From positions 42,966,001 through 43,030,000 of the forward strand of contig NC_043013.1 in NCBI RefSeq assembly GCF_006345805.1: DNA of 64,000 nucleotides, in the 5' to 3' direction. Source of the DNA: Octopus sinensis. Its lineage: Eukaryota. Made by a program: the position numbers. How positions within the stretch are numbered: the first letter of the stretch is position 1; the number at the start of each line of letters is the position of its first letter. Positions 6,801 to 60,400 of this stretch are shown here, piece after piece.

Positions 6801-9800
6801 CAGTTCCACTGCACAACACCTAAGAAAAGTATCTACTTTTATAGACCGGGCCTAAATTTGTTGACCTGATTTCGTTTCCTCTCATTGCTGAGGACGCATG
6901 GGTGTTGCTTTCACAATTGCAAGATCATGGTTTCAATTCCTGGACTGGGTGGTGAGTTGTGTTCTTGGGCAAAACACTTCGTTTCACAATGCTCTGCGAT
7001 CACTTCGACACTTGGCATGTGGTACACTTTTCATATGTTCAGGTAACGTCGATTTGATCACTGTAAACAACCTTTTACTCATTTCAGTCATTAGACTGTG
7101 GCCATGCTGGGGCACTGCCATGAAGGGTTTATTTTTAGTCGAACGAATCAACCACCAATATTTTTCTTTCTTTTTTTTTTAAGCCTGGCATTTATTCCAT
7201 TAGTTCCCTTTACCGAACGACTAAGTTACAGTGACAGAAACACAACACATTATCAAGGGTGGTAGGAGACAAACACAGACACACAAGGTGGGATTTTGGA
7301 TCAGGACACCCATATAAGTTGGATTTTCTTTGTTTTTACTCCACCACACATACATGACTTTTTTTCAGTTTCCGTCTACCAAATCCACTTCAAAGGATTT
7401 GGTCAGCCCAAGGCTATAGTAGAAGACACTTGCCCAAGGTGCCGTGCAGTGGGACTGAACCCAAAACCGTGTTGTCGGGAAGCAAGCTTCTTGTCACACA
7501 GCCACACGTGTAGATTGTTCAGCAAGAAATTGCGGAATCCTCGGACTGCGAGAGATTACCATCATATTCCTCATTACTCCGATTTCGAGACAGACCCCCT
7601 CCCACTACCACCATACCAATAATATGATAGTAACTTTTTAATCATTGAAAATCTGCACTTTTAATATGATAACAGTAAGTCACATCAAATGCTCAGTCAC
7701 ATTCCAATCATGTCCACTCTATCTTCCTTTTCAAATTTAGTGCATTTGTAACTACATGATACAGAGCATCCTTTTATTTTTTATTATTAGTACGGTGACT
7801 CGATTGCTGTTTCTAGCAAGACGAATTACCATATAGAAACTATCTCGTTGTTGTTCACACTGAAGACCTGAGATCAATGTATTTTCAGTCATCACTATTC
7901 AGCCTTTTCTTTCTTTCTTTTTTTTTTTTTTTTGCTGTGTAACAATGACTACATTATTTCAAGTGCGAATACATCCATTTTTTAAAGACAGTATGATGTT
8001 ATCTAAAGTTTAAATGAAAAATAATGGTTTCAAATTTTGGTACAAGGCCAGTAAGTTAGGAGGTAGTTGGTAAATCGATTACATTGACACTAGTGCTTAC
8101 CTGGCACTTATTTTATCAACCCCGAGAAAAAAAGTACCACTTGAGTACTGAGGTCGATGTAATCGACTTACCCACCACCCTAAACTTACAGGCCTTGTGC
8201 CAAAATTATAAACCACTAGCAGTATCGCCCGGCGTTGCTCGGGTTTGTAAGGGAAATAACTATATAAGCATTTTTAGAGAGTTATAGCCAAAAAATGGAA
8301 AAAAAATTATGGTAAATTTTTTTTTAAATCGTTGACTCATCGTAGACATTTTTAGAGAGTTACTTCCCTTATATAATAGCGAAAAAATGCATTAAAATGG
8401 AAAAAAATGATGGTAAATTTTTTTTAAATCGTAGACTCATCGTAGACGCGCGCTAATACCCAGAAGGGCTCGATATGAATCACGACTATAAGATACCCGG
8501 TTTTGGTTAAACTGCACCGCAAAATGTGGGAGTAGTTAGGAATCTAAATCGTAGGAGACAGACAGCACACAACCTCACTTTTATATACAAAGATTATTGT
8601 ATTTAAACTTCAAATCACAACACACTGCGTAACACGACAATGAACCTTCGTGACTCGCTGACTGTGACGCTGTTGGCGCCGAGGAAACGCCGTCTGGGAA
8701 GTTGTCTAAGGGAGACAACTTCGTGAATCCGGGTAATTTTAACGAACAGACGAGATTTTGTTGGAACTGAATTTGATGTGTCGCCATTAAATCAGTGACA
8801 GCAATTCTTAAGAAGGTGTTTTGTTTTGTGTGGTTTTTAAAAATTTTCTTGACAATCACAAACAATACATAGATATATTATATTCATATATGATGGCTAA
8901 TGCTAATGGAGAAATATCTAGTGAGAAATTAATAGATCTAAGGGTTGTGGATCTCCGTAATGAACTGGAAAAACGTGGACTCGATAAAAGTGGAGTGAAG
9001 GCCGTATTGTTGGAACGTCTTGAACAGGTAGGAATGAAATTACTTATGTCCATGTCTGTGTGTATGAAAGAGAGAGCGAGAGAGAAAAGGAAAGAGGGTT
9101 ATGTCGCTCCTTGTCGATAGATTTTCTTTTCTTTTAAATGTGAAAACAAATATTCACGAATGAACGCCCCCCCCTGCCTGTCTCGCAATTTTAAGACGTA
9201 TTTTGTATTTTTCGTTGTTGCTGATATCGTGAGAATCAAAAATTGCAACAACAAAAAAGAAAACTTGTCACGTTTCTCATCCATTATTCACTGCAGTCCT
9301 GTACTTCCGTCCTTCATTCATTCCCGTAGCACTTTCTACAACATATAAATTTCTTTAACTCGCCTTGTTCTTTAGGATTGAACGAAACGTTTGGTTTTTA
9401 GAATCGTCAGCGTCTACATACAGCATTAAAATTGATCAACTAATCAAATTTTCTTAAGCCATTTAAGAAAAAAATCATAAGGGAAAGTTAATGTGGGTGA
9501 ATGACGTCGTTTACCGACATGGACGGATTGTCAAATTCTATGCCGGCAACATGTTTTCTGACATCTCTATTATTAAGAATGGCTAGAGCAGCAGACGAAG
9601 TGTCTTCAGTAATAAGTTTGAATAAGAATGAATAACAACCTTCGTTGGTCGCATCTCCAGCGTCTACATACAACATATTTTTTTTTTCAATCTTAAGAAC
9701 GATAATGTATCCGAAAAATCTTCCGGAAAACACTTGTTGACTCGCCGTCTGAAGAAAATAAAAATTATCGACGAAGAATGTTACACGTGTACATCGACTA

Positions 9801-57400: not shown

Positions 57401-60400
57401 CCTAAGTCTCAGGTGAGAATTATGTTAAAACATCTGGCAACAAGTCATCAGATTATAAAAGTGATGACTTAAAAAAGAAATAAAAATTCCTAATTTCAAA
57501 TTCCGGACCGATACTGTGTGGAAAGGCTGATATTGTGGAAAAGATACTAGAAAAATGAATAAAACTTCCAACGGAAGTCAATCTCAAAGAGGGAGATGTT
57601 GTGGTGAGAGTCATTGATACTCCTGGGGGATTGGAAGAATGGATTGGTCAAACTCTTAGAAAGAGTAGAAGTCAGTAATAGTGGGGCAGAGAGCGTTTTT
57701 GGTAGTTTCGCGAAGTATGTCTGTGAACACATTGATTAAAACTCCACTGCATAATTTATCTATACCAACCTGTGGCACGATATAAAGCTTTTATACTGTA
57801 AATAAATTAGTTGTGTTATTCTCCTTAGATTGTTTTATCTCTGTCTGCTGAGCTGACAAATTACACTCTTCACGGTAATATATTGTATGGGCAAGGAGTG
57901 CATTAGGACCCTTTCTGCCAATGTAATAACTAGTTAATATGTAATACAATGTCCTCATATTCAGGTGTGTGTAACTGAATTTTAGACTGAAATTTTAAAT
58001 AATACGGTTACACACACCAGTGTATATTAGTATTATGTAGTGTAGATTGATTAATTCAATGTTATGTCATACACAGTTGTGTGAAACTGTTTTAGTCTGT
58101 GTTCAGATGTGTGTAATATAGGTTTGTGTAACTGAATGATGTATAATGCTGAAGTTACTGAACTGATGTTGAATTATTTTTTTTATTTCCAGAAAGCGAA
58201 CATACTACAGACAACATGGATGAAGTTGGTGAATTTTGTCATATTTTTGCATATCAATGTCTGTCTTCTATGTATTTTCCAAATGTCACTGTTTTGTATA
58301 TTATTTTTTTGGAGGTATTTGCTCTGGCTTAGTAACAAAAATCTATTGTGTGTGCACAGGCATGGCTGTGTGGTTAAGAAGCTTACTTTGCAACCATGTG
58401 GATTCAGGTTCAGCCTTATTGCATGGCACCTTTGGCCAGTGTCCTACTAGAACACCAAGTTGTCCAATGCCTTGTTAATCTGTTTGGTTGACAGAGACTC
58501 TGTGCTTCCTGTCAGATTGTAGTATACAGAGGTGTGTGTGTATGATGTGCTTGTTTAGATTTCATCTACCAAGCCCACACCTCTGTTTTTATAAAACGAT
58601 TTACTTGTCATCCAACAACCCCCATTCCTCTGCCTATAATGCCATTTAATTTATCTTCCCTACTTTGGCATCAACCACACATTGCCTAAACAGCTCCTAT
58701 CAAGCTTCCATTGTTTCCATGAATAAAACAGTGGGAAACATTCTCCACTGGGTACATGATAATCTTTACTCATTCAGCAAAGACAGAATCATTGCACTTA
58801 TTAGGGAATAATCTTGAACTGAACCCTTTTTAGTGCTTAACCTGCAAAGTTGCAAAAACTGCTAGGATTCAGAAACACTTAGATCTCACCTGATGATCAT
58901 ACTCTACTGTGATGTGTTCACTTAGTTTACTTTAGTGTTAGAATTTCAATGTCAGTTTGATAATGCTATCCATGAAAAGGAAGTACACAGACGTACTGTG
59001 GTCATTAATAACAGTTGAATTTCATAACTGAAAAGAGCTTTACCTGTAGCACAGCAATGATCACTGTGAATCTCAAAGAAGAAAGTACTATTATTCTATA
59101 ATAATACTATAAAATTCCTTATAGTGAAAATGGAATACAGTAATAATTTAAGCATTGAATAAGAATAAGGTACTAATGGATATTACAGTGAGCAAAGGAT
59201 AAATATAGGATGATTCAGTGTTGATGGTTAACAGAAACCTGTTTTGTTTTAATTTTTAGAAAGAATCAGAGACATCTAATGTGGCATTAACAGATGTCTT
59301 CTTAAACACTACGAATACAGATGGGTACTCTTTGATCCCTGACAAAACTTCTGTGGAAGACCTTACTGAGGATCGACTGCTTTCAAGCGATACCAAACCA
59401 TCAGATATGTTGACAGATAACACCTTTGATAAAGACCAGTTTAAAGAGGAACTACCTATATCTTTAGATACGGACAAAGACACTTGTACTGATCTGCAGG
59501 TAATGAACATTTACTACAGCTATTGTTCTATTAACTAAATTACACTACTTCATAATTAGTTTTGGATTTGGCATTTTTAACTTAATAATATGTATGAAAA
59601 TAATTTTTGATTAGGTTTGGTAGTTACTTACATTTAACAGTTAACCAGTTACAAATTTCATTAACTCTTCAAACAGAAAACTATTTGAGATCCAAATATC
59701 TTCATACATTTACACAATTACATTCGATATAAAGATAAGCAATGTAATACAACTGTATGTATTTTGTTTCATCATTTGTTGCTGTTAGTCATGTCAGGTA
59801 TTTTCTTCGCTTTTTTAGGAAGAGCCTGGTGGACCATTAATGGATACCACAGGTATGTCATTCATATGCATTAAATTTCCTAAAATTATCATTTTGTATA
59901 CTTTGGTTGACCTTAAACTGTTGAGCCATTCTCCACCTTTCAGCGAAAGTAACAAAACTCAACCAACTATAATATTCACACAAACTGAGTTTTGCCAATA
60001 ATATATACATTGTTAATGAAGGTTTCTTATAGAAGTCATATAAATTTCTAGTTTAGAATGAACTATATTGGTTCAATATATGATAGTCAACTACTACTGT
60101 AAAAACCCATGTAAATTGCGCACTTGTGATTTTCAGGATAAAATTTGTTAAAAAAAGCTTCTACTCATGTAAAATTCGCACCCAAAAGTTTTTAGAATTG
60201 CCGATATAGCTAGGGGAAAAAAGTTTTCAATTTAGTTGTATTTAGCATAATTTCACTTACTTATGATTAGATTTTATTAAATTTTCATTAAATAAAAATA
60301 ATTTCTGTTTGAAACATTGAAAGCTATTATATTACAAATTGTTTATGTTGTTTATGATAAACTTTATTTTACATTTCTTACCCACAAGAGATTATGTCCA

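What the first reader, a model, noticed from the sequence alone, without database searches (positions are those of the whole stretch)
8893..59852. Tandem duplication of SAFB, a transposon-RNA surveillance factor, with both copies apparently functional
Seen: two head-to-tail SAFB genes about 39 kb apart with identical exon order and phase. The SAP exons differ at 26/135 nt, 20 synonymous and 6 non-synonymous by my count, which indicates purifying selection. Established: vertebrates have SAFB1/SAFB2 (head-to-head) plus SLTM, flies have a single Saf-B, and SAFB proteins bind transposon RNAs and suppress their exonisation and retrotransposition. Inference: an independent cephalopod SAFB expansion in a SINE/LINE-rich genome, possibly with division of labour by tissue.
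Basis: partly seen in the sequence, partly recalled or inferred. Interest (0 to 1): 0.7.

Follow-up and report, generated by a model that had tools for sequence, protein, structure and literature searches.

The report
Octopus SAFB gene array, two members
The window holds one complete octopus SAFB gene and the first seven coding exons of a second, and these are neighbours in an octopus-specific array of at least five SAFB genes, although invertebrates were said to have only one.

Summary
Copy A (8890-43119, + strand) is a complete 20-exon SAFB gene. Copy B starts 38,904 nt downstream on the same strand, and its first 7 coding exons (47797-59852) lie in the window. All 7 exon pairs share the same length class modulo 3. 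The SAP exons differ at 26 of 135 nt and 6 of 45 residues (omega 0.05).

The window is Octopus sinensis. Copy A equals RefSeq XP_029646860 at 1020 of 1020 codons. B's exons equal XP_036366418 at 192 of 192 codons.

This is not a simple pair. O. sinensis has at least five annotated SAFB genes on one chromosome (A, B, C, E and a D type with a divergent RRM). B is closer to C and E than to A.

All cephalopod SAFBs form one clade (100/100), so the expansion is cephalopod-specific. In the C-terminal half, A groups with an Argonauta gene (99/97), so the A/B split is old.

Identity varies strongly along the gene, which suggests exchange between copies. This is not proven.

B's remaining exons lie beyond the window. 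Expression, division of labour by tissue and transposon-RNA surveillance were not tested and rest on homology alone.

The parts
8890..9027 (+). Copy A coding exon 1 (ATG at 8890 and again at 8893): SAP domain
   Evidence: Pfam SAP E 5.7e-11. 100% match to P0011 residues 1-46. GT donor at 9028.
16050..16122 (+). Copy A coding exon 2
   Evidence: Unique GT-AG solution matching P0011.
18226..18251 (+). Copy A coding exon 3
18600..18651 (+). Copy A coding exon 4
20099..20127 (+). Copy A coding exon 5
22007..22231 (+).
   Evidence: 48 of 74 aligned residues are identical to B's exon 6.
22587..22620 (+). Copy A coding exon 7
29254..29848 (+). Copy A coding exon 8: acidic Ser/Glu/Lys-rich linker. Its last 70 residues are identical in A, B and C.
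32352..32392 (+). Copy A coding exon 9
32537..32631 (+). Copy A coding exon 10: first part of the RRM (RNP2)
   Evidence: RRM_1 profile positions 1-25, 17.5 bits for this fragment. Junction.
35145..35294 (+). Copy A coding exon 11: second part of the RRM (RNP1)
   Evidence: RRM_1 E 7e-7, 29.5 bits against a cutoff of 20.7. Junction.
37505..37595 (+). Copy A coding exon 12
38112..38321 (+). Copy A coding exon 13 (Lys/Arg/Ser-rich)
38657..38871 (+). Copy A coding exon 14
39766..39929 (+). Copy A coding exon 15 (start of the Arg/Glu-rich region)
40581..40697 (+). Copy A coding exon 16: Arg/Glu-rich segment of the ancestral type
   Evidence: Identity A-Argonauta P0014 is 32/39, A-B is 18/39, B-D is 26/36.
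41156..41284 (+). Copy A coding exon 17
41430..41636 (+). Copy A coding exon 18
42213..42343 (+). Copy A coding exon 19
42779..43119 (+). Copy A coding exon 20 with the TAA stop (43117-43119): Gly/Asn-rich tail, ending 7 residues before the end seen in other paralogues
   Evidence: A codon walk over all 20 exons gave 1020 codons with 0 mismatches to P0011 and 1 terminal stop.
43120..47796 (.). 4,677-nt spacer between A's stop and B's ATG. It holds A's 3' flank (first AATAAA at 43229), a reverse-transcriptase fragment and B's upstream region.
   Evidence: RVT_1 at 45003-45332 on the minus strand.
47797..47931 (+). Copy B coding exon 1: SAP domain
   Evidence: Pfam SAP E 7.5e-11. 100% match to P0001/P0128 residues 1-45.
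53854..53908 (+). Copy B coding exon 2
54741..54769 (+). Copy B coding exon 3
55303..55354 (+). Copy B coding exon 4
58193..58224 (+). Copy B coding exon 5
   Evidence: The junction fits isoform X3 (P0128), not X1/X2.
59260..59499 (+). Copy B coding exon 6
   Evidence: 80 of 80 residues are identical to P0001.
59819..59852 (+). Copy B coding exon 7, the last B exon inside the window
   Evidence: A walk over B exons 1-7 gave 192 codons, 0 mismatches to P0128 and no stop.
59245..60080 (+). Block (exon 6, intron 6, exon 7, start of intron 7) that still aligns with A 21992-22846
   Evidence: 69.8% over 892 nt, E 5e-104. Intron 6 is 72.1% identical and the start of intron 7 is 73.1%. Other flanks score 40-47% and unrelated controls 43-44%.

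Best explanation
The window covers two neighbouring members of a tandem array of SAFB-family genes in Octopus sinensis. These are the whole of paralogue A and the 5' third of paralogue B, on the same strand, with 4.7 kb between A's stop and B's start.

Shown:
- Both start with a conserved SAP exon followed by six short, fast-evolving linker exons of matching phase.
- A continues through a split RRM, a Lys/Arg/Ser-rich stretch, an Arg/Glu-rich region and a Gly-rich tail. This is the SAFB architecture.
- Public gene models give five SAFB genes on this chromosome.
- Cephalopod SAFBs are one clade.
- B, C and E each have orthologues in three Octopus species.

Inferred:
- An ancestral single SAFB was duplicated in tandem in the octopod line. 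This gave an A type with the ancestral Arg/Glu region (shared with Sepia and with one Argonauta gene) and a derived type with a new repeat in that region (B, C, D, E and the second Argonauta gene).
- The derived type was then duplicated again before the Octopus species split.
- Exchange between copies (gene conversion or unequal crossing-over) kept the centre of the gene alike, namely the end of exon 8 and the RRM, in A, B, C and E.

Inferred by homology only: the proteins act like SAFB of human, mouse and fly, as nuclear SAP/RRM proteins that bind purine- or adenosine-rich RNA and keep intronic transposon sequence out of mRNA. If the paralogues differ in function, the difference most likely lies in the linkers and the Arg/Glu-rich region rather than in RNA recognition. 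The D type is the exception, because its RRM is only 43-44% identical to A's.
For: Anatomy:
- A's 20 exons have unique GT-AG junctions and encode XP_029646860 exactly: 1020 of 1020 codons with one terminal stop.
- B's 7 exons encode residues 1-192 of XP_036366418 exactly, with no stop.
- Pfam finds SAP in both copies and RRM_1 in A.

Selection:
- SAP exon omega is 0.05, with 19 of 26 changes synonymous (P 6e-8).
- Over all 7 exons there are 182 codons, 114 identical residues, dS 0.59, dN 0.215 and omega 0.36 (P 2e-5).

Array:
- The search with B's exon 6 gave 12 hits among 76 candidates. 11 are named Octopus proteins and one is unnamed.
- Those hits include five distinct O. sinensis versions of exon 6, at 100, 96, 86, 81 and 62% identity, all on one 59,356,462-nt record.
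- RefSeq accessions fall into five genes: A, two isoforms; B, seven; C, seven; E, one; D, two.

Phylogeny:
- Full-length tree of 35 rows: cephalopods 100/100, octopods 97/98, A plus Argonauta P0014 99/97, B group 98/100.
- C-terminal tree of 28 rows: B, C and E each form a clade of O. bimaculoides, O. sinensis and O. vulgaris (100/99, 97/98, 100/98), and A plus P0014 is 99/97.
- A clade of Octopus A+B+C+E without P0014 is rejected for exons 15-20 (AU p 0.0016).
- Each of the 12 non-cephalopod mollusc species among the 120 listed hits contributes one cluster.

Mosaic:
- A-B identity is 70/70 at the end of exon 8 and 27/31 and 48/50 in the RRM exons, but 18/39 in exon 16.
- B is nearer to D than to A in exons 1-6.
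- The central-region tree puts A with B, C and E (71/82).
- At DNA level, the exon 6-7 block has K of about 0.34 in introns, while the SAP exon has dS 1.35 and its flanks are at control level.

Function by homology: PMC10901741 (abstract and passages).
Against: - B's exons 8-20 are not in the window. Their integrity rests on public gene models, and some models in this array are visibly chimeric. P0008 and P0003 combine the 5' exons of C with parts of other copies.
- The physical order and orientation of the other copies were not seen. The order C-E-A-B-?-D is guessed from runs of accession numbers.
- No SAFB exon lies in the 8.9 kb upstream of A.
- The evidence for exchange is not decisive. 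In the central region, A plus Argonauta P0014 is not rejected (AU p 0.11) and the conflicting clade has only 71/82 support.
- Argonauta rows sit on long branches (0.5-2.4). The groups tested with AU were named after the trees had been seen.
- The all-Octopus-monophyly test on the wider C-terminal set is only marginal (p 0.038).
- Outside the SAP exon, selection is weak (omega about 0.2-2.5 on very short exons; 29 of 102 changes synonymous, P 0.046).
- A has lost the conserved last 7 residues.
- No expression, binding or transposon data for any octopus SAFB were available.
Confidence: 0.75

Rival explanations
1. B is a partial or dead duplicate. Only the 5' exons were copied or survive, and the full-length public models borrow downstream exons from neighbouring copies.
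For: - Only 7 B exons are visible in the window.
- Chimeric models exist in this array: P0008 and P0003, and the O. vulgaris E models that carry C's N-terminus.
- B isoforms X1/X2 read differently from the window's canonical exon 4/5 junction.
Against: - B-specific C-terminal sequence forms its own clade with orthologues in O. vulgaris and O. bimaculoides (100/99). That clade is distinct from C and E, so a separate B 3' half exists.
- B's 7 exons are open, keep all splice sites, and match isoform X3 at 192 of 192 codons.
- The SAP exon has omega 0.05.
Confidence: 0.07
2. The two copies are haplotypes or an assembly duplication of one gene.
For: Tandem false duplications do occur in repeat-rich assemblies. 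No evidence for one was found here.
Against: - 68 of 182 aligned codons (37%) change the residue, and dS is 0.59.
- Introns have different lengths and are mostly unalignable. Intron 1 start and the upstream region are at control level.
- Exons 2, 3, 5 and 6 differ in length.
- A and B each have their own orthologue in other Octopus species.
Confidence: 0.02
3. The array mainly serves dosage. [quoted passage not shown]
For: - The end of exon 8 is identical in A, B and C (70/70), and the RRM is 87-98% identical among A, B and C.
- The RRM tree does not separate A, B, C and E.
- In mouse, the SAFB paralogues overlap widely in expression (PMC4582101, passages).
Against: - The Arg/Glu-rich region and the N-terminal linkers differ strongly and stably between types. 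A-B identity in exon 16 is 18/39, and each type is conserved across three species.
- The D type has a strongly divergent RRM and lacks exons 12-14.
- A lacks the C-terminal tail.
Confidence: 0.3
4. A and B come from a duplication older than cephalopods and parallel the vertebrate SAFB/SLTM split.
For: RefSeq names in the array mix 'SAFB1', 'SAFB2' and 'SLTM'.
Against: - All 15 cephalopod rows are one clade (100/100), separate from the vertebrate SAFB1/SAFB2/SLTM clade (100/100).
- The RRM tree gives separate decapodiform (95/90) and octopod (87/88) clades.
Confidence: 0.02

Closest known systems
Vertebrate SAFB1/SAFB2 pair (and SLTM)
   Same: - Same domain order: N-terminal SAP, central RRM, Arg/Glu-rich region, Gly-rich C-terminus with the conserved F-D-A-Y motif near the end.
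- Adjacent paralogues on one chromosome.
- The paralogues are most alike in SAP and RRM.
(PMC4582101 passages; PMC10901741 passages; alignments.)
   Different: - The vertebrate pair is head to head, about 500 bp apart, with a bidirectional promoter (PMC4582101). The octopus genes are head to tail with a 4.7 kb spacer.
- The duplications are independent, with separate clades.
- Octopus has at least five genes, against three in mammals.
Drosophila Saf-B / C. elegans PHM-2 (single invertebrate SAFB)
   Same: Protostome SAFB orthologues with SAP and RRM. Fly Saf-B binds a purine-rich motif and represses L1/LTR elements (PMC10901741 passages).
   Different: These are single-copy genes. [quoted passage not shown] The octopus array and the two or more Sepia genes are exceptions.
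RefSeq/ENA gene models of Octopus sinensis, O. vulgaris and O. bimaculoides SAFB-like genes
   Same: They are the same loci. XP_029646860/61 is A and XP_036366416-22 is B.
   Different: The models are unpublished automatic annotation with inconsistent names (SAFB1, SAFB2, SLTM) and some chimeric isoforms. No paper describing the expansion was found.

Membership tests
SAFB family (SAFB1/SAFB2/SLTM/Saf-B) | N-terminal SAP domain | tested here: met
   Pfam PF02037: A E 5.7e-11 (42.2 bits), B E 7.5e-11 (41.8 bits), cutoff 23.9.
SAFB family (SAFB1/SAFB2/SLTM/Saf-B) | Central RRM | tested here: met
   A: RRM_1 is split over exons 10 and 11. The exon 11 piece scores 29.5 bits against a cutoff of 20.7. 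The exon 10 fragment scores 17.5 bits. B's RRM exons lie outside the window. Its public product carries PF00076 (precomputed) and is 87-96% identical to A over the RRM exons.
SAFB family (SAFB1/SAFB2/SLTM/Saf-B) | Arg/Glu-rich region and Gly-rich C-terminus with a conserved terminal motif | tested here: met
   A's exons 15-20 align along their length with mollusc, insect and chordate SAFBs. The last 7 residues are missing in A because of a TAA at 43117.
SAFB family (SAFB1/SAFB2/SLTM/Saf-B) | Orthology: nearest relatives outside the lineage are SAFB proteins, and the gene nests among them in a tree | tested here: met
   Named non-cephalopod hits among the 120 listed are mostly SAFB1, SAFB2, SAFB-like or SLTM, and the rest are hypothetical, unnamed or uncharacterised proteins. 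All carry RRM and nearly all carry SAP Pfam domains. The cephalopod clade sits among protostome SAFBs.
SAFB family (SAFB1/SAFB2/SLTM/Saf-B) | Binds A/purine-rich (transposon) RNA and suppresses exonisation and retrotransposition | not testable with these tools
   Known for human, mouse and fly only (PMC10901741).
True tandem paralogues (not alleles or an assembly artefact) | Same strand, adjacent, collinear exon structure | tested here: met
   All tblastn hits are on the + strand. 7 of 7 exon pairs have the same order and phase class. Collinear similarity islands lie at offsets of 35.5-38.9 kb.
True tandem paralogues (not alleles or an assembly artefact) | Divergence beyond allelic, with separate orthologues in other species | tested here: met
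   dS 0.59 and 68 of 182 residues differ. The A and B clades each hold sequences from other Octopus species.
True tandem paralogues (not alleles or an assembly artefact) | Both copies intact over the full length | tested here: inconclusive
   A is intact over 20 exons. B is intact over the 7 exons in the window. The rest is known only from public models.
Orthologue of the vertebrate SAFB1-SAFB2 head-to-head pair | Divergent orientation with a shared bidirectional promoter, from the same duplication event | tested here: not met
   The octopus genes are head to tail, with 4,677 nt between A's stop and B's ATG. The cephalopod and vertebrate duplications fall in separate clades.

The most novel reading that the evidence does not exclude
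The octopod SAFB array is an evolving, recombining cluster of RNA-surveillance genes, a pattern-guided defence against transposons that has multiplied in a transposon-rich genome. Exchange between copies keeps a common core, namely the end of exon 8 and the RRM. The Arg/Glu-rich pairing region (1-3 copies of a new repeat) and, in the D type, the RRM itself diversify. Different paralogues would then assemble into different complexes and police different repeat families or tissues. This would be the first SAFB gene family of this size outside vertebrates, and a natural experiment on how SAFB specificity is set.
Probability: 0.12. Interest if true: 0.75.

Novelty: new member of a known kind. Interest (0 to 1): 0.4.

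Why it matters
SAFB proteins were recently shown to keep intronic transposons out of mRNA and to block L1 retrotransposition in human, mouse and fly. The same paper states that invertebrates have a single SAFB gene (PMC10901741, section 10). Octopus has at least five in one array, and a cuttlefish has at least two. So cephalopods, whose genomes are large and repeat-rich, enlarged this family on their own.

The array offers paralogues with a nearly identical RRM but different pairing regions (A against B, C and E). It also offers one with a very different RRM (D). This is a ready-made set for asking which part of SAFB sets target choice.

In itself, a lineage-specific tandem expansion of a known family is an ordinary kind of event, and the genes are already in RefSeq.

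Tried and rejected
- Rfam at gathering threshold over the whole window gave 0 matches.
- PDB sequence searches with A's RRM exon 11 and SAP exon found only generic RRM and SAP chains (7 and 1 hits) and no SAFB entry, so no structural comparison was made.
- Literature: 'SAFB' plus 'octopus' gave 2 papers. By their titles they are reviews on regeneration and on oestrogen-receptor signalling. I saw the listing only. 'Scaffold attachment factor' plus 'cephalopod' gave 0.
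- I looked for an Argonauta-Octopus divergence date in PMC9635652 and PMC12682272 (passages). None was found in the passages shown, so no date is given. PMC9635652 has 0 mentions of SAFB.
- A search for shorter relatives of P0011 gave 131 hits at E <= 1e-30, of which 120 were listed. It added no named cephalopod beyond O. bimaculoides fragments. The many unnamed hits were not fetched.
- The full-length tree is blurred by chimeric models (P0003, P0008). It was therefore repeated by region with non-chimeric rows.
- Promoter and polyA reading of the spacer gave only motif hits and CpG ratios, which I do not interpret.
- No complex or structure prediction was run, because no binding claim is made.
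- Genome contigs holds only bacteria and archaea, so the octopus chromosome beyond the window could not be fetched.

Full report
**What is in the window**

The window has no N and 36% G+C. A stop-to-stop ORF list shows two nearly identical SAP-type peptides on the + strand, at about 8.9 kb and 47.8 kb. The exons are 8893-9027 (a further in-frame ATG sits at 8890) and 47797-47931. Both are followed by GT. They differ at 26 of 135 nt and 6 of 45 residues. The Nei-Gojobori count is 19 synonymous and 7 non-synonymous changes, dS 1.35, dN 0.07, omega 0.05. Nineteen or more synonymous changes among 26, against 22% expected, has P = 6e-8. Pfam calls SAP in both, at E 5.7e-11 and 7.5e-11.

**Identity of the locus**

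I searched exon by exon and did not join exons into a model of my own for any search. B's large N-terminal exon (59260-59499, 80 aa), searched against longer proteins, gave 12 hits among 76 candidates. Eleven are named Octopus proteins and one is unnamed. The best is 100% identical: 'scaffold attachment factor B1 isoform X2 [Octopus sinensis]'. Mapping the returned public proteins back onto the window gave these results:
- P0011 (XP_029646860) is copy A. There are 20 coding exons, each junction has a single GT-AG solution, and 1020 codons show 0 mismatches with one terminal stop.
- Copy B's first seven coding exons encode residues 1-192 of P0128 (XP_036366418, isoform X3) with 0 mismatches and no stop.
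Exons 2-5 are 26-73 nt long and were missed.
- The seven exon pairs have the same length class modulo 3.
- B's exon 8 would lie beyond 64000, so about two thirds of B is outside the window.

**Selection in the visible part**

Over the 7 exon pairs there are 182 aligned codons, 114 identical residues, dS 0.59, dN 0.215 and omega 0.36. Outside the SAP exon the short linker exons evolve fast: omega is 0.2-2.5, and 29 of 102 changes are synonymous (P 0.046). Strong constraint is therefore shown for SAP only.

**More than two copies**

The exon-6 search already returned five different O. sinensis versions, at 100, 96, 86, 81 and 62% identity, all on one record of 59,356,462 nt. Cluster look-up shows five RefSeq genes:

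| Gene | Accessions | Note |
|---|---|---|
| A | XP_029646860/61 | complete in the window |
| B | XP_036366416-22 | seven isoforms |
| C | XP_036366408-14 | seven isoforms |
| E | XP_036366415 | no SAP exon in the model |
| D | XP_029646790, XP_036366428 | divergent RRM |

O. vulgaris has models with consecutive accession numbers CAI9735048-56 (eight seen; 50 not seen). In that run the types follow each other as D, ?, B, A, E, C. This fits the O. sinensis numbering (C, E, B, with A keeping an older number). The order C-E-A-B-?-D is only a guess from numbering.

Some models are chimeric. P0008 and P0003 carry C's first exons joined to parts of other copies, and the O. vulgaris E models carry C's N-terminus.

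**Phylogeny**

From the 120 hits listed of 1373 I took 35 rows: all 14 named cephalopod clusters, one unnamed relative (P0019), the 12 non-cephalopod mollusc species (one cluster each) and 8 outgroups. The other listed rows, mostly vertebrates, insects and unnamed records, were left out.

- Full-length tree: cephalopods 100/100, octopods 97/98, A plus Argonauta P0014 99/97, and the Octopus B group 98/100.
- RRM alone, 29 rows: a decapodiform clade (95/90) and an octopod clade (87/88), so cuttlefish and octopus duplicated SAFB separately. D joins the second Argonauta gene P0057 (80/68, both on long branches).
- Part after the RRM, 28 rows with non-chimeric models: B, C and E are each a clade of three Octopus species (100/99, 97/98, 100/98). 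They form one group (98/98), and A joins Argonauta P0014 (99/97).
- Holding all Octopus copies together is marginally rejected on that set (AU p 0.038). Holding A+B+C+E together is clearly rejected for exons 15-20 (p 0.0016).
- These groups were named after the trees had been seen, and Argonauta rows are long.

**Mosaic pattern**

Identity per exon:
- A-B is 70/70 at the end of exon 8, 27/31 and 48/50 in the RRM exons, but 18/39 in exon 16.
- In exon 16, A-Argonauta P0014 is 32/39 and B-D is 26/36.
- In exons 1-6, B is closer to D than to A (for example 62/74 against 48/74 in exon 6).

The central region (exon 8 to the RRM) gives a tree with A inside B/C/E (71/82). However, A plus P0014 is not rejected there (AU p 0.11).

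In the window's DNA, intron 6 and the start of intron 7 are still 72-73% identical between A and B (K about 0.34, like exon 6's dS of 0.43). The start of intron 1, the 300 nt before the ATG and the end of intron 5 are at the level of unrelated controls, 40-47% against 43-44%.

Together this suggests that different parts of the genes have different histories, through gene conversion or unequal crossing-over. It does not prove this. Local constraint on intron 6 and fast change in Argonauta are alternatives.

**What it most likely does**

By architecture and orthology these are SAFB proteins. Human, mouse and fly SAFB bind adenosine- or purine-rich RNA, suppress exonisation of intronic transposons and block L1 retrotransposition. 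That paper says invertebrates have a single orthologue (PMC10901741, abstract and passages). The mammalian SAFB1/SAFB2 pair is head to head with a bidirectional promoter of about 500 bp, and its members differ partly in tissue expression (PMC4582101, passages). None of this was tested for octopus. The transfer of function is inference.

**Rivals**

- A haplotype or assembly artefact is excluded by the divergence and by separate orthologues.
- A pre-molluscan origin is excluded by the tree.
- A dead or partial B is unlikely, because a B-specific 3' half is conserved in three species. It cannot be excluded from the window alone.
- Whether the copies are redundant (dosage) or divided in labour is open.

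**Left unchecked**

- Sequence beyond 64000 and the physical layout of the array.
- Any expression data.
- Unnamed database hits, which were not fetched.
- Paper supplements, which were closed.

Noticed in passing
window 2222-3085 (+): A gag-like ORF (Pfam DUF7041, E 1.5e-24) with a zinc-knuckle-like Cys/His motif (my reading of the ORF, not a Pfam hit) lies 5.8 kb upstream of A. It equals RefSeq 'uncharacterized protein LOC115220740' (P0142). An O. vulgaris model (P0141, 1327 aa) fuses it to SAFB-A.
   Followed up: partly
window 13091-13854 (+), in A intron 1: Remnants of a Mos1/mariner-type transposase: HTH_48 E 3.4e-17 and Transposase_1 E 1.9e-13.
   Followed up: partly
window 45003-45332 (-), in the A-B spacer: Reverse-transcriptase fragment (RVT_1, E 2.3e-8).
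   Followed up: partly
window 52766-53287 (-), in B intron 1: ORF with a weak Integrase_H2C2 match (E 0.0027, below the curated cutoff).
   Followed up: no
window 48896-49516 and 50202-50825, in B intron 1: Near-perfect palindrome whose longest arm segments are 283 nt at 97% and 217 nt at 100% complementarity. Shorter, offset matches within the arms suggest internal repeats. A related unit lies at the collinear place in A intron 1 (9969-10086, 72%).
   Followed up: partly
window 43117-43119: A ends with TAA directly after F-D-A. At this point B, C, D and Argonauta P0014 have Tyr plus six more residues, ending in M-G-S-M. O. sinensis A, and the O. vulgaris A model, therefore lack a conserved C-terminal tail.
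   Followed up: partly
window 55354/58193 (B exon 4/5 junction): B isoforms X1/X2 (P0127, P0001) read I-I-K-N-E-H here. The window's GT-AG junction gives I-K-S-E-H, as in isoform X3 (P0128). I could not derive the X1/X2 reading from the window.
   Followed up: partly
outside the window (public proteins P0145, P0007, P0057): D-type paralogue. Its RRM is 43-44% identical to A's, RNP1 reads C-H-A-F instead of C-Y-G-F, and the segment matching A's exons 12-14 is missing. The second Argonauta gene (P0057) shares these traits.
   Followed up: partly
outside the window (public proteins P0002, P0001, P0009, P0003): In the derived type, the Arg/Glu-rich region holds a repeat of roughly 40 residues (M-K-L-E-K-E-K-L-L-R-Y... 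unit) that is present 1 to 3 times depending on the model.
   Followed up: no
outside the window (P0015, Acanthosepion pharaonis): A cuttlefish model carries two RRMs in tandem (86% and 77% identical to A's), and a second cuttlefish gene (P0017) lies on the same contig. This is either an independent decapodiform duplication or a fused model.
   Followed up: partly
window 8200-9800 and 47900-48700: The CpG observed/expected ratio is 1.2-1.6 around A's first exon and 1.1-1.5 just downstream of B's first exon, against 0.3-0.9 in the neighbouring stretches.
   Followed up: no
whole window: 13,952 of 64,000 bases have at least one other similar copy inside the window (short interspersed repeats in both orientations within the SAFB introns). 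Rfam found no RNA family.
   Followed up: partly
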